Origin: a virus
Lineage: Duplodnaviria > Heunggongvirae > Uroviricota > Caudoviricetes
Direction: 5' to 3' (one strand)
DNA length: 51,851 nt
IMG/VR virus record: IMGVR_UViG_2923307698_000007
Coordinates: 1 to 51,851 of that record
Part shown: positions 1 through 44,196 of the stretch, piece after piece
Position numbering within the stretch: position 1 is the first letter of the stretch
Layout of the letters: the number at the start of each line of letters is the position of its first letter
Notes under the pieces: model-generated
Told to the model about the DNA's origin: nothing
The model's database searches: none
What the model saw: the letters and a program-made list of their open reading frames with translations, nothing else
Program-made: the position numbers and the translations under genes

Positions 1-270
1 CTATTTCATTCCGCCAATATTTTCCCACGTCCCGTCAGCACGCAGGATTTGCAGCGGTCTTACCACGCACTGTATCTGCTTTTTATCCGCATCCAGTATC
101 ACCACCTGCGTGATTACCCTGGCCTGCTCCGGGATAATGCCATTCTCATCGGACTCCAGAATGTCTGCCGGTCCCAGTCGCAGCTGTGCTGTAAGTAACT
201 CCCCGTTTTCACGGTCATCATGCTTTCCGCAACCGCACAGACGCTGCATAAGTTTTTTTAGTATGTTCAT
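1..270 (-). CDS. Hypothetical small protein downstream of side tail fiber (possible tail fiber associated)
   Basis: 89-aa ORF starting MNILKK with AGGAG RBS; ATG at 268-270; stop of stf at 272-274; shares an LRLGP motif with the Stf C-terminus. Confidence 0.45.
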   Translation of the reverse strand: MNILKKLMQRLCGCGKHDDRENGELLTAQLRLGPADILESDENGIIPEQARVITQVVILDADKKQIQCVVRPLQILRADGTWENIGGMK

Positions 271-271
271 G

Positions 272-1585
272 TCATTCTCCTGTTCTGCCTGTATCACTGC
301 CCACTTCATCCAGCCCCTTGACATCCTGCCACGGCCCGTCACCAAACCTGACCTGCAAATGCTGAAAAAACCCCTGAACCCGTGTGGCATCTTTGGGGTC
401 AAGAAAGGTCAGTCCGGTGATGAGTGCGCCATCTGTATCCGGGAACCAGCCATTGCTGTTTGTCTCAATAATGTTTCCCGGCCCCAGACGGAACCGTATT
501 TGTGTCTCCCCCGGGTCGCCCTTCGGTCCCTGAGGTCCGGTTGCCCCCACCGGGCCAGCCGCACCTGTTTCTCCTTTCGGTCCCTGTGGGCCTGCCGGGC
601 CTGCCGCACCGGTATCTCCCTTTGGACCCTGTGGACCTGCATTTCCCGTCAGACCGGTCTCTCCCCGCTCTCCCCTGTCGCCTTTCGGCCCCTGCGGGCC
701 TGCCGGACCAGCATCACCTGCCGGCCCCCGTTCACCGGTTGCCCCTGCCGGGCCGGTGTCGCCACGCTCTCCTTTATCTCCCTTCGGCCCCTGAGGACCC
801 GCGGGCCCCTGTTCCCCCTTTGGCCCGGGAGGCCCCACCACGGTCGGGATTCGGTTTACGGCTTCTTCCGCCGCTATCCTGCTTTGTTCCGCTGACTGTG
901 CGCTTTCTGCTGACTCCCGGGCTTTTTCTGTTGCGGTCGTTGCATCCCTGGCTGCATTACCGGCTGCACTTTCTGCCGTCTTTCTTGACAATTCAGCTTC
1001 TGCTGCACTTTGTGATGACTCACTGGCTTTTTGAGCGGCCGCAGAGGCCGAGGACGAGGACGCCTCCTCTGACTGCTTTGCAGCGGCTGCACTTTCTGCC
1101 GCCTGCCGGGCTGACTCCGATGCATCCCCTGCTGAAGTGTCAGCATTTGCAGCGTTCTCTTCTGCCTGACTGGCTGATATGCCGGCATTCCTCGCGGACG
1201 TCTCTGCTTCTCCGGCATTCTTCTTCGCCTCCTCTGCGTGACGCGCTGCTTCTTCCACCATCAGTTCAAAACGGCGCAGTGCCTCCGGCCGGACGTCATC
1301 CTCCGACATGGCACCGAGAAAATCATTCAGCGTACCGGGTTGAGAATCTTCATACACGGTGATGGTCCCGGCATGTGACGGCGGGAATCCTTCCACCAAC
1401 AGAATGACGCTGTACTGACCGTACTCAACGTCCATGCTGTAACGACCGGCTTCATCCGGATTTTCAGAGGCCACCGTGTTCACCACCACCGTGCTGCTGG
1501 TCCGTCTGGCTTTCAGTTGAATGGTGCAGTTCTGTATTGGTTTTCCTGTGCCGTCTTTCAGCACACCTGAAATCTTTACTGCCAT
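272..1585 (-). CDS. stf: Side tail fiber protein, Stf-like, with collagen-like Gly-X-Y repeats
   Basis: N-terminus [16 protein letters not shown] matches recalled lambda Stf N-terminus; long GPxGxxG repeat tract; ORF track start is GTG at 1591, ATG at 1583-1585 preferred. Confidence 0.8.
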
Positions 1586-1593
1586 ATTCACCC

Positions 1594-1623
1594 CACAAAA
1601 AAGCCCGCCTGAACCGGCGGGCT
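1594..1623 (-). terminator. Intrinsic terminator-like hairpin with U-tract between lom and stf
   Basis: 8-bp GC stem 1602-1609/1616-1623 followed on minus strand by U-run (plus A-run 1597-1601). Confidence 0.5.
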
Positions 1624-1649
1624 GTCATAACACTGTGTTACCTGGCTAA

Positions 1650-2249
1650 TCAGAATTTATAGCCGACACCCACGATGAAACCGTCAGTGCGCCAGTCGCC
1701 ACTGCCGGAACCTTCATAAGCAATATCAATTGCCACGGATTCGGTCGGGTTAAACTGCACGCCAGCTCCCCACGCCAGAGACGTGTTGCTGTGGCGACCG
1801 TCATCACTTCCGGTCAGCACATCGTGCGTTTTCCCCTTGTTGTCAGTTACGCGGAGATAATCCCCGGAAAAAGTCGACACACGGCTGTAAGCCACGCCCG
1901 CCATCGCATACGCACTGAACCATTCATTCACGCGCACAGACGGCCCCGCCATTACGCTGAACCAGCGGTTACGCACGGAATCTTCATGCCAGCGGGTATC
2001 GCTGTAATGGGTCAGCTGGCGATTCCTGTCTCCTGCATAGCTGAACGACGTCACCATCCCCAGTGTGTCCGTAAACTCATAACGGTATTTCACGTTAATC
2101 CCGTTCAGTTCATCGCTGCCGGGAACGCTCGTCGAGACATGAAGATACCCCGCGCTCAGCGTGGACTGATGTTCAGACGCCCATGCAGGCGCACCGGATA
2201 CGGCCAGACAAATGGCTGCGGACAAAATGGCGGCATAAAGTTTACGCAT
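1650..2249 (-). CDS. lom: Lom outer membrane protein (Ail/Lom/OmpX family)
   Basis: 199 aa with signal peptide; C-terminus IAYEGSGSGDWRTDGFIVGVGYKF matches recalled lambda Lom. Confidence 0.9.
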   Translation of the reverse strand: MRKLYAAILSAAICLAVSGAPAWASEHQSTLSAGYLHVSTSVPGSDELNGINVKYRYEFTDTLGMVTSFSYAGDRNRQLTHYSDTRWHEDSVRNRWFSVMAGPSVRVNEWFSAYAMAGVAYSRVSTFSGDYLRVTDNKGKTHDVLTGSDDGRHSNTSLAWGAGVQFNPTESVAIDIAYEGSGSGDWRTDGFIVGVGYKF

Positions 2250-2271
2250 AATTACCTCTCGCTTTTCTGCA

Positions 2272-2297
2272 ATAAAAAAGGCGTCATTTCTGACGCC
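2272..2297 (-). terminator. Intrinsic terminator downstream of J (tJ-like)
   Basis: 7-bp stem ggcgtca/tgacgcc at 2280-2297 followed on minus strand by U6. Confidence 0.5.
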
Positions 2298-2315
2298 CGT
2301 TATGGGTTATAAAAT

Positions 2316-3713
2316 TCAGCTGATACTGATACCTGCTGTGGATTTTTTCATCACCACAACCAGCAGATCGCTGATACTGGTTGTTGGTGTCCAGTTATTC
2401 GCTCCTGATGAAGATACGGTGAATGTCAGTGTCAGCGTCCCCTGTCCGGCAGGCATATCTATAACTGAAGAAAATACGCCCTGAGCATCCGTCGTGGACT
2501 GATTAAAAATCTCCTGACCATTGTGGGTCACTCTTAACCGGCAGGTTGAATACCAGTATGACTGTTGGTTATTACTGTTGAAATTCTCATGCTTACCACC
2601 GCGGAATAACACTGGCGGTATCATGACCTGCCGGTCAAACTTCTGATCATCACTGATTCTTACCGTGATGGTGCCACTGGCATAAGTGCTCGTGCGGGGG
2701 AAAGACTTGCTGACCGTTTTGACAATATCGCCTTCAATCTGGTTGGCTGACAGTTTCCCCTTAATCTGACAGTTCTCATTAATCGTGACGTTGTTGAGCG
2801 TCCCTGAGTTCGCATTCACACTGCCACTGATATCCGCATTTTTCGCCGTCAGTCGCCCGTCCGGCGTCAGGGAAAACGTCGGGGGGTTGCCGGATGACGT
2901 GATACTCACCGCAAACAGTCGTTTCAGGAACACGTCGTTCATGAACAGCTGATTCCCCTGCGCCACAAATAACGGCGTGCTGTTGCCGCTCTCCGGATTT
3001 ATCATCGCGATACGGTCAGCCAGCAGCAGTATGTTGCTCAGTGGCTGGCCATCAGTATCCTCAATCCCTGCACCAATCCCGGCCACATAGGGAATGCCGT
3101 CTTTCGTTTTTTGAACCTTCAGCATGTACAGCGCAGCCAGGTCATCATTTGTGTCCTTCTGCACGCGCTGTATCTGCTGTATGGTGGCGCTCTGGTTCTC
3201 CAGTGTTTTGTTGACCGTCTGTGTGATTTCATTGCGGGTTTCCGTGATGCTGGTCTTCATCTCCGCCATCTCATCTGCAAGCTGGCTGTTATCTATCAGT
3301 TCCCACAACCCCTGAGCCAGATGCAGTTTTCCTATTTTTTCCCGGAAAAATTCCAGATACCCTTCACCATCATTGCTGGGCTGCCCGCTGACTTCCACAA
3401 ACGCAGATTTCCCCACCAGGTTGACGCTGCGCACGTAAAACCAGAAATCCTTCCCGGGCTTAATGTGCGGGCCGGATACACTCCACTGACTGCCGGTCCC
3501 CAGATAACGGGCAGAGGTTTCCACCTGAGATGTGTCTGCGATTTTTGCCTCCGAAAACCAGAATTCAAACTGTACCGTCGGGTCATATACAGCCAGTTTC
3601 GGGACCGCCGTTATCTGAAAATAGCCCGGTGTCAGCTCAATCTGTGACGGCGCTGCCGGTGCGGCAATCCGGAACGATACCGACGCCGGATCGCCCTGCT
3701 GCCCCCCACGCAT
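2316..3713 (-). CDS. J: Tail tip host specificity protein J, C-terminal segment (frameshifted relative to N-terminal segment)
   Basis: Translation [18 protein letters not shown]...[10 protein letters not shown] matches recalled lambda J C-terminal half. Confidence 0.8.
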
Positions 3714-39823: not shown

Positions 39824-40758
39824 AAATCCACCCCGTAAATCCAGTCAGTGTTTGTCAGGTCGAGTTTTGGTTTTCCAGCTGTCACGCCAGCCTGTTGCTT
39901 GTTACGGTTGATTTCGAGTTGGGTCCACTTGTCGCGGAGTTTGGCCGGACTTAGCACGTTACCGGACCAGAAGTTGTCCTGGCATGCCCAGCGGAACAGC
40001 ACGCACATGTCGCGGTGGTTACGTCCGTCACGTTCACGCATCAGGCGGATATCGTTAGCCCACCCTGCAAAATTCGGTTTTCTGGCTGATGGTGCGATGG
40101 TCTTCACCATGTCAAACATCCACTCTGCGGCGGTCAGGTCTTCTGCTGTTCCCCACTTGCTGCCGCTCTGAATTGCAGCATCCGGTTTAACCACAGAAAG
40201 ATCGTTTTCTGGCTGGTCAGAGGATTCGCCAGAATTCTCTGACGAATAATCTTTTCTTTTTTCTTTTGTAATAGTGTCTTTTGTGTCCCCCTGTTTTGAG
40301 GGATAGCAATCCCCTAATTTGAGGGATGTTTTATCCCTCGTTTTAGGGGATTTTCCCTCGTTTTGAGGGATGTCCCTCATTTTAGGGGAACCTCCCTCGT
40401 TTTGAGGGATGCACCATTCTGAGATGTTTTTATTTGGTCCAAACATGCCGCCTTGCTGCTTGATAATATTCATTCTGACGAGTTCTAACTTGGCTTCATT
40501 GCACCGTTTGACAGGTAACTTTGTAATCTCGCTAAGTTGAGAATCGGTGATTCTGTCCATTGGTTTATTCCACCCATAGGTTTTACGCAGAATGGCAAGC
40601 AGCACTTTAAACTGTCGCTTGGTCAGATCTGCGCCTGAATAAGCCTCAATCAGCATATTTGATAGTCTGGCGTAACCATCATCGAGATCTGCCACATTAC
40701 GCTCCTGTTCGGCAAAGTTACCTCTGCCGAAGTTGAGTATTTTTGCTGTATTTGTCAT
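39820..40758 (-). CDS. O: Replication initiator O
   Basis: 312 aa, near identical to recalled lambda O, with extra in-frame repeat in the iteron-encoded linker. Confidence 0.95.
   Translation of the reverse strand: MTNTAKILNFGRGNFAEQERNVADLDDGYARLSNMLIEAYSGADLTKRQFKVLLAILRKTYGWNKPMDRITDSQLSEITKLPVKRCNEAKLELVRMNIIKQQGGMFGPNKNISEWCIPQNEGGSPKMRDIPQNEGKSPKTRDKTSLKLGDCYPSKQGDTKDTITKEKRKDYSSENSGESSDQPENDLSVVKPDAAIQSGSKWGTAEDLTAAEWMFDMVKTIAPSARKPNFAGWANDIRLMRERDGRNHRDMCVLFRWACQDNFWSGNVLSPAKLRDKWTQLEINRNKQQAGVTAGKPKLDLTNTDWIYGVDL
40240..40409. repeat. ori: Origin of replication: six iteron-like repeats plus adjacent AT-rich tract inside O
   Basis: Repeats of tccctc-N6-gaggga type at 40286-40409; AT-rich 40240-40285. 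Confidence 0.8.
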
Positions 40759-40790
40759 AATGACTCCTGTTGATAGATCCAGTAATGACC

Positions 40791-41087
40791 TCAGAACTCC
40801 ATCTGGATTTGTTCAGAACGCTCGGTTGCCGCCGGGCGTTTTTTATTGGTGAGTCCATCAAGCGCATACTTAAAAGCCCTGCTAATCGGACTGATGTCTG
40901 ATGCCATTCCGAAAGCACACAAGACCGAAGCAATAAATCTCCAGTCCGTTCTGCTTATCTTCGATTCATGACAGCCAATCATCTTTGCCAGACCGCGCTG
41001 GGTAATAGCTGACAGATTGATAAGTAAATCTGTTTCTGCGCGATCAACGTCACGCTGTGATAGTTTGCTGTAACTTGTTCTTTCCAT
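40791..41087 (-). CDS. cII: Transcriptional activator cII
   Basis: 98 aa; C-terminus TNKKRPAATERSEQIQMEF identical to recalled lambda cII. Confidence 0.85.
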   Translation of the reverse strand: MERTSYSKLSQRDVDRAETDLLINLSAITQRGLAKMIGCHESKISRTDWRFIASVLCAFGMASDISPISRAFKYALDGLTNKKRPAATERSEQIQMEF

Positions 41088-41146
41088 TTGTTAATTTTCC
41101 TATATTGATATATAGCGGCACACCCAGTGGATTTGCCGCTGATGTT

Positions 41147-41189
41147 TGCTCACCCGGTTAGAGGTGAAAGGCCAGAACTGTTAAAGAGC
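41147..41189 (-). promoter_or_regulatory. nutR: nutR (boxA GCTCTTTAACA plus boxB hairpin with CTAACC loop)
   Basis: boxA identical to the copy in nutL; boxB stem-loop with same 6-nt loop. Confidence 0.5.
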
Positions 41190-41196
41190 AATTTAC

Positions 41197-41382
41197 TTAT
41201 GCCGCTTGGCGGTAAGCACTTTCTTGATACTTCAGGGCGCCAGCTGTAACGATTTCCAATCGATAGGCGTCTTTCTCTGGGATAACTTCTTTCCACTGAG
41301 AGACTGCTGCATCGCTAATGCCTAGTGCTTTAGCAACAGCACGCTGGGTTCCGAAGTGGTCAATAACATCTTTTTTGTACAT
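41197..41382 (-). CDS. cro: Cro repressor (P22-type)
   Basis: 61 aa MYKKDVIDHFGTQRAVAKALGISDAAVSQWKE... matches recalled P22 Cro. Confidence 0.85.
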   Translation of the reverse strand: MYKKDVIDHFGTQRAVAKALGISDAAVSQWKEVIPEKDAYRLEIVTAGALKYQESAYRQAA

Positions 41383-41395
41383 AGACTCGCTCCGA

Positions 41396-41458
41396 AATTA
41401 AAGAACACTTAAATTATCCACCAAGGGAATCTTAAGTCAAGTTTATTTAAGATGTCTT
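41396..41458. promoter_or_regulatory. OR operator region with P22-type palindromic half-sites (pR/pRM)
   Basis: aTTAAAGaacaCTTAAAT and ATTTAAGatgtCTTAACT palindromes between divergent cro and c2. Confidence 0.5.
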
Positions 41459-41462
41459 AACT

Positions 41463-42113
41463 ATGAATACACAACTGATGGGTGAGCGTATTCGCGCTCG
41501 CAGAAAAGAACTCAAGATTAGGCAGGCTGCCCTTGGCAAGATGGTTGGCGTGTCTAATGTTGCTATTTCCCAATGGGAGCGATCTGAAACTGAGCCCAAT
41601 GGCGAAAACCTATTGGCCTTAGCCAAGGCTTTGCAGTGCTCCCCTGATTACCTGTTGAAAGGAGAGGATAGTCTTTCAAACATTGCCTATCACAGCAGGC
41701 ATGATCCAAGAGGTTCGTATCCTCTAATTAGTTGGGTAAGCGCAGGATGTTGGATGGAAGCTGTAGAGCCATATCATAGGCGTGCAATAGATAACTGGTA
41801 CGACACAACGGTAGATTGTTCTGAAGACTCTTTTTGGCTCGACGTTAAAGGTGATTCAATGACTGCCCCGGCAGGACTGAGTATTCCTGAAGGGATGATT
41901 ATTCTCGTCGACCCAGAAGTCGAACCACGTAATGGAAAGCTGGTAGTCGCCAAACTTGAAGGAGAAAACGAGGCGACATTCAAAAAGTTAGTTATTGATG
42001 CCGGTAGAAAATTCCTGAAACCACTCAATCCACAATACCCAATGATTGAAATCAATGGGAACTGTAAAATCATTGGCGTTGTCGTTGATGCCAAGCTAGC
42101 AAACCTTCCTTAA
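41463..42113 (+). CDS. c2: C2 repressor (P22-type, LexA-like autopeptidase fold)
   Basis: 216 aa, near identical to recalled P22 C2. Confidence 0.95.
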   Translation: MNTQLMGERIRARRKELKIRQAALGKMVGVSNVAISQWERSETEPNGENLLALAKALQCSPDYLLKGEDSLSNIAYHSRHDPRGSYPLISWVSAGCWMEAVEPYHRRAIDNWYDTTVDCSEDSFWLDVKGDSMTAPAGLSIPEGMIILVDPEVEPRNGKLVVAKLEGENEATFKKLVIDAGRKFLKPLNPQYPMIEINGNCKIIGVVVDAKLANLP

Positions 42114-42134
42114 GGGGCTTTCGCCCCTTTTTTA
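42113..42134 (+). terminator. Terminator-like hairpin after c2
   Basis: ggggc-ttc-gcccc followed by T7. Confidence 0.45.
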
Positions 42135-42277
42135 TTTCCCGTTAAAAATCAAAGACAAACTAAATTCGCGCCCATAAAATTAAGTTTTCTTCAAAAATGC
42201 ACTTGACCAACAAATTAAGAGGTCTTAAATTTAAGCCGTCAGCAGGAGGCTGGAAGCCAAACGGAACAGATTGGCAG

Positions 42278-42317
42278 GCTCTTTAACATCGACGAACTCT
42301 CAACCTAACCGTTGAGA
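42278..42317 (+). promoter_or_regulatory. nutL: nutL (boxA GCTCTTTAACA and boxB hairpin tctcaac-CTAACC-gttgaga)
   Basis: Shares boxA and boxB loop with nutR; upstream of N. Confidence 0.5.
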
Positions 42318-42427
42318 CCAGAACTTGAGTGGTTTTGGGGATGGCGCGAATTGCAGCTGCAAGACAGCGATCGAGAAGATAAGCACCTCGACGCGTCATG
42401 CGCCAAAGCCACTTAAAGGAGACCATC

Positions 42428-42733
42428 ATGGTAACCATTGTCTGGAAAGAATCCAAAGGTACGGCAAAAAGCCGCTACAAAGCTCGCAGAGCAGAACTTA
42501 TTGCCGAGCGACGCAGTAATGAAGCACTGGCGCGAAAAATTGCGCTAAAGCTCTCTGGTTGCGTCAGAGCAGACAAAGCAGCATCACTAGGAAGCCTTTG
42601 CTGCAAGAAGAAAGAAGAAGTTGTTCGAAAAAATAGAAGTATTTATTACAAGGATTCAAACCCATTAGGAAACAAAATACATGCAGTCCAAAAAATAAAA
42701 TTGTACAGTAAACTACCGTACGGTGCTTATTGA
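42428..42733 (+). CDS. N: Antiterminator N (phage 21-type arginine-rich motif)
   Basis: GTAKSRYKARRAELIAERR arginine-rich motif near N-terminus; AAGGAG RBS; downstream of OL/nutL. Confidence 0.7.
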   Translation: MVTIVWKESKGTAKSRYKARRAELIAERRSNEALARKIALKLSGCVRADKAASLGSLCCKKKEEVVRKNRSIYYKDSNPLGNKIHAVQKIKLYSKLPYGAY

Positions 42734-42735
42734 GT

Positions 42736-43074
42736 ATGCTTATGGTGAAAAAGACTATTTATGTTAATCCTGACCGCGGACAAAACAGAAAAGTATCTGA
42801 TAGAGGTCTTACATCTCGAGACAGGAGGAGAATAGCGAGATGGGAAAAGAGGATAGCATATGCATTAAAAAACGGTGTAACACCTGGATTTAATGCTATA
42901 GATGACGGTCCTGAATATAAGATTAATGAAGACCCAATGGACAAAGTTGACAAAGCATTAGCAACACCATTTCCTCGCGATGTCGAAAAAATTGAAGATG
43001 AAAAATATGAGGATGTAATGCACAGAGTTGTTAATCACGCTCACCAACGAAATCCAAATAAAAAATGGTCATAG
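42736..43074 (+). CDS. nun: Nun transcription termination / exclusion protein (HK022-type)
   Basis: DRGLTSRDRRRIARWEKRIAYALKNGV arginine-rich motif and C-terminal ...NPNKKWS match recalled HK022 Nun. Confidence 0.85.
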   Translation: MLMVKKTIYVNPDRGQNRKVSDRGLTSRDRRRIARWEKRIAYALKNGVTPGFNAIDDGPEYKINEDPMDKVDKALATPFPRDVEKIEDEKYEDVMHRVVNHAHQRNPNKKWS

Positions 43075-43084
43075 CCCACTTCGG

Positions 43085-43106
43085 TGGGTTTTTTATTGGC
43101 TGAACT
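43085..43106 (+). terminator. Intrinsic terminator after nun
   Basis: cccacttcggtggg hairpin followed by T6. Confidence 0.6.
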
Positions 43107-43207
43107 AACCGAATTTATTACAGCAAGCCACGCAGTGAAATGGGTGTGACTTGTGTTGGTCGCCAGAAAATGAAATTAGGCAGCAAACCACTTATTTGAG
43201 GTGAGAT

Positions 43208-43678
43208 ATGACAAAATCATGGAGCGTACCTTTTCCTGAATCAGAAACTGAACATGATGGAATGCCTGTTTTCTGGAGATTCCAGGCGACAGTTGAAGAA
43301 GATGGGATAAAAATATTCGCACTTCAATATATAGCTTTTCATCAGACAGAGCATTATGCATGGTTGGTTCCTGCGCATTGGATTGTTAATTTTAAACCAG
43401 CACCAAATCAGTGGTTACAGGAATGGAAACAAAGGAGAAATAGATATGCAATTAAGAAAGTAGCAAAAAATGCAGAAAGATCTTTTGCATTCCCAACGAA
43501 GAAACTTGCCATTGAGAGTTTATTGCGCCGGAAGAAATACCATTTAATGAGAATCAAACAAGATTTGGCTGTTGTATCAACTCTTGTTGATGGGATGAAG
43601 AATATTGATACATCAACACCAGATATTGAATATAACTTTGGGCACAACCAAGAAACAGAAAATTGGGTATTTTATTAG
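43208..43678 (+). CDS. Hypothetical protein (ORFan at sieB/ral-equivalent position)
   Basis: 156-aa ORF with GAGGTGAGAT RBS; no recognisable motif; lower GC than flanks. Confidence 0.5.
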   Translation: MTKSWSVPFPESETEHDGMPVFWRFQATVEEDGIKIFALQYIAFHQTEHYAWLVPAHWIVNFKPAPNQWLQEWKQRRNRYAIKKVAKNAERSFAFPTKKLAIESLLRRKKYHLMRIKQDLAVVSTLVDGMKNIDTSTPDIEYNFGHNQETENWVFY

Positions 43679-43827: not shown

Positions 43828-44196
43828 ATGTCAAACATCAAAAAATACATCATTGATTACGACTGGAAAGCATCAATAGAAATTGAAATCGACCATGACG
43901 TAATGAAAGAGGAAAAACTTCACCAGATTAATAATTTCTGGTCAGACTCTGAATACCGACTAAATAAACACGGCTCTTTATTAAATGCTGTATTAATCAT
44001 GCTGGCGCAACATGCTCTGCTTATAGCAATTTCGAAAGACTTAAATGCATATGGTGTTGTGTGTGAGTTCGACTGGAATGATGGAAATGGTCAGGAAGGA
44101 TGGCCTCCAATGGATGGTAGCGAAGGAATAAGAATTACCGATATCGATACATCAGGAATATTTGATTCAGATGATATGACTATCAAGGCCGCCTGA
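43828..44196 (+). CDS. Hypothetical acidic protein (ORFan)
   Basis: 122-aa ORF with GAGGA RBS; Asp/Glu-rich C-terminus. Confidence 0.5.
   Translation: MSNIKKYIIDYDWKASIEIEIDHDVMKEEKLHQINNFWSDSEYRLNKHGSLLNAVLIMLAQHALLIAISKDLNAYGVVCEFDWNDGNGQEGWPPMDGSEGIRITDIDTSGIFDSDDMTIKAA

What the first reader, a model, noticed from the sequence alone, without database searches (positions are those of the whole stretch)
42278..43074. Phage-21-type N and HK022-type Nun encoded in tandem, with matching nutL/nutR
The pL operon carries an N with the GTAKSRYKARRAELIAERR arginine-rich motif, followed directly by a Nun-like protein with the RDRRRIARWEKR motif and C-terminal KKWS. nutL and nutR share boxA GCTCTTTAACA and boxB hairpins with a CTAACC loop. 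In HK022, Nun occupies the N position and excludes lambda; here a functional N-type antiterminator and Nun-type exclusion appear to coexist.
Basis: partly seen in the sequence, partly recalled or inferred. Interest (0 to 1): 0.5.

Follow-up and report, generated by a model that had tools for sequence, protein, structure and literature searches.

The report
N antiterminator plus Nun exclusion cassette
This E. coli prophage carries a phage-21-type N antiterminator followed directly by an intact copy of the HK022 Nun protein that blocks phage lambda; the pairing is real, but it is already annotated in sequenced phages and is the usual setting of nun in E. coli genomes.

Summary
nutL and nutR are phage-21-type: boxA GCTCTTTAACA, then a 7-bp boxB stem with a CUAACC loop. 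N (42428-42733) has residues 1-57 identical to phage 21 N. Nun (42742-43074) is 108/109 identical to HK022 Nun.

About 490 bp (~42616-43106) is inserted into the 3' end of a phage-21-type N. It holds a diverged N 3' end that contains the annotated nun promoter, then nun, then an intrinsic terminator. The displaced phage-21 N 3' end survives as a pseudogene (43107-43199). So N is a hybrid, not purely phage-21-type.

HK022 keeps 38 codons of the same N 3' end upstream of nun. Of 218 complete E. coli genomes with nun, 210 have this phage-21-type N-nun tandem, 6 an HK620-type N-nun tandem, and 1 the HK022 put-nun layout. mEp235, mEpX1 and PA28 are already annotated as N plus Nun.

Coexistence is expected, because Nun targets lambda-type boxB and not the CUAACC hexaloop. 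Function is inferred, not tested. Verdict: real, ordinary, already in databases, though I found no paper discussing it. Side lead: Nun-family paralogues elsewhere carry other arginine-rich motifs.

The parts
41179..41189 (-). nutR boxA (GCTCTTTAACA)
   Evidence: Exact match, one of only two in the window. Identical to the boxA-R annotated in phage 21.
41149..41168 (-). nutR boxB hairpin (TTCACCTCTAACCGGGTGAG; CUAACC loop)
   Evidence: Folds as a 7-pair stem with a 6-nt loop, -7.6 kcal/mol. Identical to phage 21 nutR.
42112..42137 (+). Intrinsic terminator after the cI-like repressor gene (41463-42113)
   Evidence: Terminator scan. Fold -12.1 kcal/mol followed by a T-run. It limits read-through from cI towards nun.
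42203..42231 (+). pL promoter (TTGACC, 17 nt, TAAATT)
   Evidence: Promoter scan. The position corresponds to the pL/OL region of phage 21.
42278..42288 (+). nutL boxA (GCTCTTTAACA)
   Evidence: Identical to phage 21 boxA-L.
42298..42317 (+). nutL boxB hairpin (TCTCAAC-CTAACC-GTTGAGA)
   Evidence: 7-bp stem and 6-nt loop, -8.0 kcal/mol. Identical to phage 21 nutL. The CUAACC hexaloop is the phage 21 boxB solved with the N peptide (PDB 1NYB; PMC12550061).
42428..42733 (+). N gene, 101 aa. Residues 1-57 are identical to phage 21 N. From about residue 63 it is cassette-type (...EVVRKNRSIYYKDSNPLGNKIHAVQKIKLYSKLPYGAY).
   Evidence: C-terminal variant. dN/dS against the PA28 allele is 0.32 overall and 0.21 for codons 61-99. 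Weak Pfam PF25694 hit, below cutoff.
42616..43106 (+). nun cassette (moron): N 3' end with P_Nun, then nun, then terminator. Absent from phage 21, present in HK022.
   Evidence: blastn: window 42616-43091 matches HK022 at 96.6%. Phage 21 homology runs to 42650 and resumes at 43107 (alignment A1).
42641..42650 (+). Left copy of the 10-bp direct repeat ATTTATTACA (the I-Y-Y codons of N)
   Evidence: Read from the sequence and alignment A1. The phage 21 N gene has one related copy (ATTTACTACA) in the corresponding IYY codons.
42681..42709 (+). P_Nun: -35 ATGCAG (42681-42686) and -10 TACAGT (42704-42709), inside the N ORF
   Evidence: Identical to the 'nun gene promoter' -35 and -10 annotated in phage O276 / HK022 DNA, mapped through alignment A1. 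The promoter study by King et al. 2000 is cited in PMC5386594.
42742..43074 (+). nun gene, 110 aa including the initiator Met. One substitution relative to HK022 Nun (S11R in mature numbering).
   Evidence: ARM 26/26 identical to the 1HJI peptide. H98, K106, K107 and W108 are present. dN/dS 0.04-0.16.
43073..43098 (+). Intrinsic terminator directly after nun
   Evidence: Terminator scan. Fold -10.3 kcal/mol plus TTTTTTATT. HK022 keeps the stem through compensatory changes, CCCGC/GCGGG against CCCAC/GTGGG.
43107..43199 (+). Displaced 3' end of phage 21 N (NRIYYSKPRSEMGVTCVGRQKMKLGSKPLI*), a pseudogene remnant
   Evidence: 96% identical to the phage 21 N 3' end; translation. PGAP marks the same stretch in O55:H7 CB9615 as an incomplete 'regulator' pseudogene.
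43113..43122 (+). Right copy of the direct repeat ATTTATTACA
   Evidence: Sequence and alignment A1.

Best explanation
This is the early-left regulatory region of an apparently complete lambdoid E. coli prophage. It uses the phage 21 specificity class of N antitermination and also carries the HK022 nun gene as a self-contained cassette inserted into the 3' end of N.

Shown by the sequence:
- nutL and nutR are identical to those of phage 21.
- The N RNA-binding motif is identical to that of phage 21.
- Nun is 108/109 identical to the protein whose arrest mechanism has been solved.
- The annotated nun promoter lies inside the last third of the N ORF.
- An intrinsic terminator directly follows nun.
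- The original phage 21 N 3' end is left as a remnant downstream.

Inferred mechanism in the lysogen: the repressor shuts pL, so N is not made. P_Nun constitutively transcribes nun alone, and the transcript ends at the terminator. Nun binds lambda-type boxB (GAAAA or GAAGA pentaloop) on the nascent RNA of a superinfecting lambda or lambda imm434. Its C-terminus (H98, K106, K107, W108) jams RNA polymerase translocation, and the incoming phage is excluded.

Inferred mechanism after induction: pL transcripts carry nutL. N binds the CUAACC hexaloop boxB and, together with the host Nus factors, converts polymerase to a termination-resistant form. That polymerase reads through the nun terminator, which acts as the first pL terminator, into cIII, kil, gam, bet, exo and int.

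The two factors can coexist because the resident nut sites are not Nun targets.
For: Identity of the parts.

P_Nun annotation in HK022-derived DNA. The existence of the promoter study is shown.

Nun mechanism, required residues and low lysogen concentration: PMC5386594.

Nun specificity: its only known role is to exclude lambda and lambda imm434, which share nut sites. nun is dispensable for HK022 growth and lysogeny: PMC4124055 and PMC4496710.

CUAACC hexaloop as the cognate phage 21 boxB, with distinct loops mediating cognate specificity: PMC12550061.

No lambda-type boxB lies in the pL or pR leaders.

Purifying selection on both genes.

The same tandem is found in the phages mEp235, mEpX1, Kapi1, PA28 and Stx1a phages, and mEp235 and mEpX1 were grown and titred by plaque assay. 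It is also in 210 complete E. coli genomes.

The prophage context looks complete, with int, exo/bet/gam, kil, cIII, cI, cro, cII, O, P, nin genes, Q, lysis genes, terminase and capsid in the near-identical O55:H7 prophage.
Against: No experiment on this prophage or on any N-nun tandem phage was found in the held literature.

The N C-terminal third, by analogy with lambda N the polymerase-contacting part, is only about 57% identical to phage 21 N. Activity of the hybrid is therefore assumed, supported only by phage viability and dN/dS from small counts.

N scores below the Pfam N_peptide cutoff, and Nun has no Pfam or NCBIfam family.

That Nun ignores phage 21 nut rests on the published exclusion range plus my recollection of Robert et al. 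1987. It is not a binding test.

After induction nun is also transcribed from pL, and Nun is toxic and arrests non-specifically at high concentration. How the phage tolerates that is not addressed.
Confidence: 0.85

Rival explanations
1. Only nun is under selection. The hybrid N is a crippled relic of the cassette insertion, and the prophage relies on something else for early gene expression or is defective.
For: The insertion replaced the last ~35 codons of phage 21 N with a sequence only about 57% identical. In PA28-type alleles a 1-bp deletion changes the last residues and extends the ORF into nun, so the extreme C-terminus is not tightly constrained. N is below the Pfam cutoff.
Against: The ORF is intact in the window and in all phage alleles examined. 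dN/dS is 0.21 for the cassette-derived codons 61-99. The replaced segment is homologous to the C-termini of functional N proteins of Salmonella phages (ES18 gp54 and P22-like gp24, 65-75%). Plaque-forming phages mEp235, mEpX1 and Kapi1 carry it with matching nut sites and no put RNA. A strong terminator sits between pL and the rest of the operon, which makes an antiterminator necessary.
Confidence: 0.08
2. Nun in this context has a job other than lambda exclusion. For example, it might modulate the resident phage's own pL or pR transcription, or host transcription, with N as its partner or antagonist.
For: Nun arrests elongation complexes without any lambda sequence in vitro and is toxic when overproduced (PMC4124055). 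It is co-transcribed with N from pL after induction. This N C-terminal variant at 85% identity or more is found only next to nun in the phage collection.
Against: The protein is 99% identical to HK022 Nun, including the whole ARM. nun mutations do not affect HK022 growth or lysogeny. The linkage of the N 3' end with nun is explained more simply by P_Nun lying inside it. Related N C-termini occur in nun-free Salmonella phages.
Confidence: 0.05
3. The tandem is a chance juxtaposition of ORFs or an assembly artefact.
For: None found.
Against: The same 1091 bp is found at 99.7-100% identity in many independent complete genomes, and at 98.7% in the separately sequenced phage mEp235.
Confidence: 0.01

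Closest known systems
Coliphage HK022 Nun (transcription arrest / lambda exclusion factor; PDB 6ALG, 1HJI)
   Same: The protein is 108/109 identical, including the full ARM and the C-terminal H98, K106, K107 and W108. It has the same P_Nun -35 and -10 sequences, the same downstream terminator stem-loop, and the same 114-bp N 3' segment upstream.
   Different: In HK022 the segment upstream of that N 3' remnant is putL RNA and there is no N. Here it is an intact nutL plus the 5' two-thirds of a phage-21-type N, giving a complete N ORF. One substitution (S11R) lies outside the ARM.
Phage 21 N / nut antitermination system (PDB 1NYB)
   Same: boxA and boxB of nutL and nutR are identical. N residues 1-57 are identical. 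Same imm21-type repressor region and pL (96% DNA identity over 42100-42650).
   Different: N residues from about 58 onward are replaced by the cassette version (~57% identity). A ~490-bp insert carries nun. The authentic phage 21 N 3' end is left as a pseudogene. The gene after N is a 156-aa ORF with no Pfam or NCBIfam match instead of ral.
Phages mEp235, mEpX1, Kapi1, PDP110P1, PA28 / 06-3462 and Stx1a-converting phages
   Same: The same nutL(21)-N-nun tandem at 91-98.7% DNA identity. mEp235, mEpX1 and PA28 are already annotated as 'antitermination protein N' plus 'Nun / Nun-like transcription termination factor'.
   Different: They differ in immunity regions (mEpX1, PA28) and downstream genes. 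PA28-type N has a frameshifted, extended tail. No published functional work on the pair was found.
Morons of lambdoid phages (promoter-gene-terminator cassettes expressed from the prophage)
   Same: Own constitutive promoter, one gene and its own terminator. Present or absent between otherwise homologous phages. The product benefits the lysogen.
   Different: The promoter and left end of the cassette are embedded in, and complete, an essential phage ORF (N) instead of lying between genes.

Membership tests
Lambdoid N antiterminator, phage 21 specificity class | Arginine-rich RNA-binding motif of phage 21 N | tested here: met
   22/22 identical to the peptide in PDB 1NYB. Residues 1-57 are identical to phage 21 N.
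Lambdoid N antiterminator, phage 21 specificity class | Cognate nut sites (boxA plus boxB with a CUAACC hexaloop) in both the pL and pR transcripts | tested here: met
   identical to phage 21 nutL and nutR. Hexaloop identity: PMC12550061.
Lambdoid N antiterminator, phage 21 specificity class | First gene of the pL operon, downstream of nutL | tested here: met
   pL 42203-42231, nutL 42278-42317, N 42428.
Lambdoid N antiterminator, phage 21 specificity class | Full-length homology including the C-terminal region | tested here: inconclusive
   The C-terminal ~40 residues are ~57% identical to phage 21 N and 65-75% to Salmonella phage N / gp24 proteins. They are homologous but of a different subtype.
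Lambdoid N antiterminator, phage 21 specificity class | Pfam N_peptide (PF25694) gathering score | tested here: not met
   18.4 bits against a cutoff of 27.9, E = 0.0032. Phage 21 N was not scanned, so its score against this model is unknown.
Lambdoid N antiterminator, phage 21 specificity class | Nus-dependent antitermination activity | not testable with these tools
   Needs a reporter or phage genetics.
HK022 Nun transcription arrest factor | Full-length sequence identity to Nun | tested here: met
   108/109 identical to 6ALG chain N, E = 2e-71. 99.1% by tblastn to HK022.
HK022 Nun transcription arrest factor | ARM that binds lambda boxB | tested here: met
   26/26 identical to the 1HJI peptide solved with lambda boxB.
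HK022 Nun transcription arrest factor | C-terminal residues required for arrest (H98, K106/K107, W108) | tested here: met
   All present. The requirement is stated in PMC5386594.
HK022 Nun transcription arrest factor | Constitutive prophage promoter P_Nun just upstream, and a terminator just downstream | tested here: met
   The -35 and -10 hexamers are identical to those annotated in O276 / HK022 DNA. Terminator. Promoter activity itself was not tested.
HK022 Nun transcription arrest factor | Exclusion of lambda by the lysogen | not testable with these tools
   Needs a plating assay.
Moron (prophage-expressed insertion cassette) | Own promoter and terminator, and presence/absence polymorphism between homologous phages | tested here: met
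   Absent from phage 21, with clean flanks and a 10-bp direct repeat. The same cassette sits behind phage-21-type N, HK620-type N and HK022 putL.

The most novel reading that the evidence does not exclude
The textbook picture that Nun replaces N at the N locus may be backwards for natural populations. On this reading nun is a cassette that normally rides inside an intact N gene of a non-lambda specificity class, and HK022, where putL replaced the N 5' part, is the rare derivative.

A further step: the Nun arrest domain may be a module retargeted by swapping arginine-rich motifs. Relatives found here combine the invariant C-terminus (VNHxHQRxPxKKW) with three motif types:
- the HK022-type ARM;
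- a lambda-N-type ARM (P0022);
- a phage-21-N-like ARM, in a 97-aa subfamily from Klebsiella, Enterobacter and metagenomes, sometimes in tandem with a Nun-type gene.

If the third type arrests phage-21-class transcription, prophages like the one in this window would be its targets. Nun would then be one member of an arms-race family rather than a one-off.
Probability: 0.3. Interest if true: 0.55.

Novelty: already known. Interest (0 to 1): 0.27.

Why it matters
For this window it mainly corrects annotation. RefSeq labels N and Nun in hundreds of pathogenic E. coli genomes (O26:H11, O55:H7, O111, O157 Stx1a phages) as 'hypothetical protein'. In fact they encode a well-understood antiterminator and a well-understood lambda-exclusion factor.

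More generally, Nun has been studied almost only in HK022, where it stands alone. Knowing that it nearly always sits behind a working N of another specificity gives natural systems (mEp235, mEpX1) for two questions. How do N-modified and Nun-arrested polymerases interact when both factors are made from one operon? What does Nun do for lysogens in the gut?

Tried and rejected
- Family libraries: Pfam and NCBIfam scans gave no family for Nun and only a sub-threshold N_peptide hit for N. Membership therefore rests on direct comparison with phage 21, HK022 and PDB chains.
- Rfam over 40700-43400 found nothing relevant, only a chance snoRNA hit at E = 0.2.
- Seven literature searches gave no paper discussing N and Nun in one phage. 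Two of them were wasted on ambiguous terms ('Nun', 'PA28').
- The Kapi1 paper and the lambdoid co-transfer paper do not mention Nun or antitermination.
- King et al. 2000 (P_Nun), Casjens and Hendrix 2015, and Cilley and Williamson 2003 are not held. P_Nun therefore rests on the O276 GenBank annotation and my memory of the abstract.
- Co-adaptation: I considered that the nun-linked N C-terminus protects the phage from its own Nun. I rejected this as unnecessary. P_Nun lies inside that segment, which explains the linkage, and related C-termini occur in nun-free Salmonella phages.
- Self-targets: I looked for a lambda-type boxB that resident Nun could hit. The only match (18762-18776, minus strand) lies inside a 454-aa ORF, has no boxA, and is at chance level.

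Full report
**What is in the window.** The region is the immunity and early-left part of a lambdoid prophage, with the pL operon on the + strand. A LexA-like repressor gene lies at 41463-42113 (+), cro at 41382-41197 (-) and cII at 41087-40791 (-). The repressor gene ends at an intrinsic terminator (42112-42137). pL is TTGACC, 17 nt, TAAATT at 42203-42231.

boxA GCTCTTTAACA occurs exactly twice in 51.8 kb, at 42278 (+) and 41189 (-). Each copy is followed by a 7-bp hairpin with a CUAACC loop, at 42298-42317 (+) and 41168-41149 (-). boxA and boxB of both sites are identical to phage 21 nutL and nutR; only one spacer base differs. The CUAACC hexaloop is the phage 21 boxB solved in complex with its N peptide (PDB 1NYB; PMC12550061).

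**The two proteins.** N is 42428-42733 (101 aa), and the start matches the phage 21 annotation. Residues 1-57 are identical to phage 21 N. The 22-residue peptide of 1NYB matches 22/22.

Nun is 42742-43074. It is 108/109 identical to the Nun chain of the cryo-EM arrest complex 6ALG and 26/26 identical to the peptide solved on lambda boxB (1HJI). The single change (S11R) lies N-terminal to the ARM. H98, K106, K107 and W108, which are required for arrest (PMC5386594), are all present.

blastn gives three segments:
- window 42100-42650 matches phage 21 at 96%;
- window 42616-43091 matches HK022 at 96.6%;
- window 43107-43210 again matches phage 21, namely the 3' end of its N gene.

So about 490 bp (~42616-43106) is inserted relative to phage 21. 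The insert contains a diverged version of the last ~38 N codons, then nun, then an intrinsic terminator (43073-43098). The insert completes the N ORF. The original phage 21 N 3' end (NRIYYSKPRSEMGVTCVGRQKMKLGSKPLI*) is displaced to 43107-43199 as a remnant. PGAP independently calls that stretch an incomplete pseudogene in O55:H7 CB9615. A 10-bp direct repeat, ATTTATTACA, covering the I-Y-Y codons of N, flanks the insert at 42641 and 43113. N is thus a phage-21/cassette hybrid, and its C-terminal ~40 residues are only ~57% identical to phage 21 N.

**The promoter for nun lies inside N.** The GenBank record of phage O276, a lambda/HK022 hybrid, annotates the 'nun gene promoter' -35 and -10. Through alignment A1 these map to window 42681-42686 (ATGCAG) and 42704-42709 (TACAGT), with every base conserved, within the last 20 codons of N. 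The underlying study is King, Madsen and Weisberg 2000, J Bacteriol 182:456. It is cited in PMC5386594 but not held. My recollection of its abstract is that P_Nun is constitutive in the repressed prophage and that its transcripts should stop downstream of nun. The terminator stem is kept between HK022 and the window by a compensatory pair of changes (CCCGC/GCGGG against CCCAC/GTGGG). The cassette has the anatomy of a moron, except that its left end is part of an essential phage ORF.

**HK022 is the exception, not the rule.** HK022, HK75 and O276 keep 38 codons of the same N 3' end between putL and nun. Counts among 5426 complete E. coli genomes:

| Arrangement | Genomes |
|---|---|
| nun present (≥80% of the gene) | 218 |
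| phage-21-type nutL + N + nun, contiguous | 210 |
| HK620-type nutL + N + nun | 6 |
| HK022-type putL + nun | 1 |

In the HK022-query search every other listed match starts exactly at the N-remnant junction. In the HK620-type variant the nutL and ARM are replaced but the rest of N and nun are the same.

Among phage records, 22 of 30 nun-bearing entries have the tandem: mEp235, mEpX1, Kapi1, PDP110P1, PA28 / 06-3462 and eleven Stx1a phages. mEp235 (2012), mEpX1 and PA28 are already annotated as 'antitermination protein N' next to 'Nun / Nun-like transcription termination factor'. Hence my novelty rating of 'already known'. I found no paper in the held library that discusses the pairing, and much of the older phage literature is not held.

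**Are both genes functional?** This is inference, on four grounds.
- Both ORFs are intact.
- Between the window allele and the 91%-identical PA28 allele, dN/dS is 0.32 for N, 0.21 for the cassette-derived codons 61-99, and 0.15 for nun. The counts are small, so this is indicative only.
- mEp235 and mEpX1 are grown and titred as plaque-forming phages (PMC3442831). They carry the same N and nut sites and no put RNA.
- The nun terminator stands between pL and cIII, kil, gam, bet, exo and int, so an antiterminator is needed.

The extreme N tail is not critical. PA28 has a 1-bp deletion that alters the last residues and extends the ORF into nun. The cassette-type N C-terminus is most similar to N / gp24 of nun-free Salmonella phages (ES18, P22-like; 65-75%). 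It is therefore a normal N C-terminus subtype.

**How it most likely works.** In the lysogen, pL is repressed and P_Nun makes a short nun transcript. Nun, at the low concentration reported for HK022 lysogens (~100 nM; PMC5386594), is tethered by its ARM to lambda-type boxB on the transcripts of a superinfecting phage and blocks polymerase translocation. The published exclusion range is lambda and lambda imm434, which share nut sites (PMC4124055). I recall that lambda imm21 is not excluded (Robert et al. 1987, from memory). The resident phage uses CUAACC boxB and has no lambda-type boxB in its early leaders, so it is not a target. On induction N is made, binds its own boxB and carries polymerase through the nun terminator. 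Coexistence is thus the expected design for a nun carrier. HK022 reaches the same compatibility by using put RNA instead.

**Rivals.** An N that is a dead relic is unlikely (about 0.08) for the reasons above. A different role for Nun is not excluded, but nothing requires it (about 0.05). An artefact is excluded by hundreds of independent assemblies.

**Seen beyond the window.** The Nun family is small, with 22 clusters among 5.8 billion proteins. The main cluster has 556 members, named only 'transcriptional regulator'. Relatives at 61-67% identity, in Citrobacter and in metagenomes, keep the ARM and the C-terminal HEDVMHRVVNHAHQRxPxKKW.

Their gene contexts differ:
- putL-like, then nun-like, then an N 3' remnant (Citrobacter braakii);
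- putL-like, then nun-like, then a second Nun paralogue, then a terminator, then a complete N with a lambda-type ARM (L014).

The second paralogue belongs to a conserved 97-aa subfamily. It has the invariant Nun C-terminus but an ARM (SKNRRYKxRGELIAKRKAE) resembling that of phage 21 N. P0022 joins a lambda-N-type ARM (Pfam N36) to the Nun C-terminus. This suggests that the arrest module is retargeted by ARM exchange. It is untested and lies outside the window.

**Verdict.** The finding is accurate and its interpretation is supported. The locus is a known gene pair in its commonest natural arrangement, already annotated in phage records. Interest is low to moderate. The added value is the cassette anatomy, the census showing HK022 to be atypical, and the lead on Nun paralogues.

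Noticed in passing
window 43107-43199 (+): A 3' remnant of the authentic phage 21 N gene (...NRIYYSKPRSEMGVTCVGRQKMKLGSKPLI*) lies downstream of nun. It shows that the nun cassette was inserted into a phage-21-type N. PGAP marks it as an incomplete 'regulator' pseudogene in O55:H7 CB9615.
   Followed up: yes
L002 (HK022) 1375-1500; also HK75 and O276: HK022 keeps 38 codons of an N 3' end (EVVRKNRSIYCKDSNPLGNKIHAVQKIKLYSKLPYGAY) between putL and nun. The segment carries P_Nun and is unannotated in the HK022 records. It implies that HK022 descends from an N-nun tandem, or recombined with one.
   Followed up: yes
L008 (E. coli HCM-22C-2) 1255-2053, plus 5 other genomes: This variant tandem has the nutL and ARM of the HK620 / CUS-3 / mEp213 class (DDNARNRRRARRQAQREQ; boxB tcccgcCGAAATgcggga) joined at N codon ~33 to the same N C-half and nun. 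Its Nun has R-to-Q, I-to-M and K-to-E changes in or near the ARM, as in HK75. Whether that GAAA-containing boxB is a Nun target is open.
   Followed up: partly
L014 3324-3617 (metagenome contig); relatives P0023-P0036: A conserved 97-aa Nun paralogue subfamily occurs in Klebsiella, Enterobacter and metagenomes. It keeps the invariant Nun C-terminal motif but has a phage-21-N-like ARM (AKDNSKNRRYKxRGELIAKRKAE). In L014 it overlaps the end of a Nun-type gene, and both lie behind an HK022-like putL. It may be a Nun retargeted to phage-21-class nut sites.
   Followed up: partly
L010 3001-3267 (protein P0022): An 88-aa protein at the N position joins a lambda-N-type ARM (MDAQARRREKRKEKQEEWKRQN, Pfam N36) to the Nun C-terminal domain (...HEDVMHRVVNHAHQRNPKLKW). 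Whether it acts as an antiterminator or an arrest factor is unknown.
   Followed up: partly
L014 4117-4440: A complete N with a lambda-type ARM, and a C-terminus like the window's N (ERKNRRTWYKDSNPFGNKIHAVQK), lies in a phage that has put-like RNA and two Nun-type genes. I saw no lambda-type boxB between the nun terminator and this N on reading the sequence (no pattern search was run). What this N acts on is unexplained.
   Followed up: no
L006 (phage PA28) 1470-1530: A 1-bp deletion near the end of N removes its stop codon and extends the ORF 12 codons across the nun start. Some records miscall nun as a shorter ORF as a result.
   Followed up: partly
window 43208-43678 (+): A 156-aa ORF with no Pfam or NCBIfam hit occupies the place of ral, the first gene after N in phage 21. 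The next gene (43828-44196) is DUF2528, in the position of the lambda Ea10-like gene in phage 21.
   Followed up: no
window 18762-18776 (-): GCCGTGAAAAACGGC is a lambda-boxB-like hairpin with a 5-bp stem and a GAAAA loop, and its two mismatches to lambda are compensatory. It lies inside a 454-aa ORF with no boxA nearby. 19 of 100 shuffles give a match of this quality, so it is probably chance.
   Followed up: partly
PMC3442831 (literature): Inducing double lysogens of lambda with HK022 or mEpX1 (both nun carriers), or with mEp213, strongly reduced the titres of both phages. Adding mEp235 or mEpX2 restored the partner but not lambda. The authors gave no mechanism, and Nun is an obvious candidate for the effect on lambda.
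   Followed up: no
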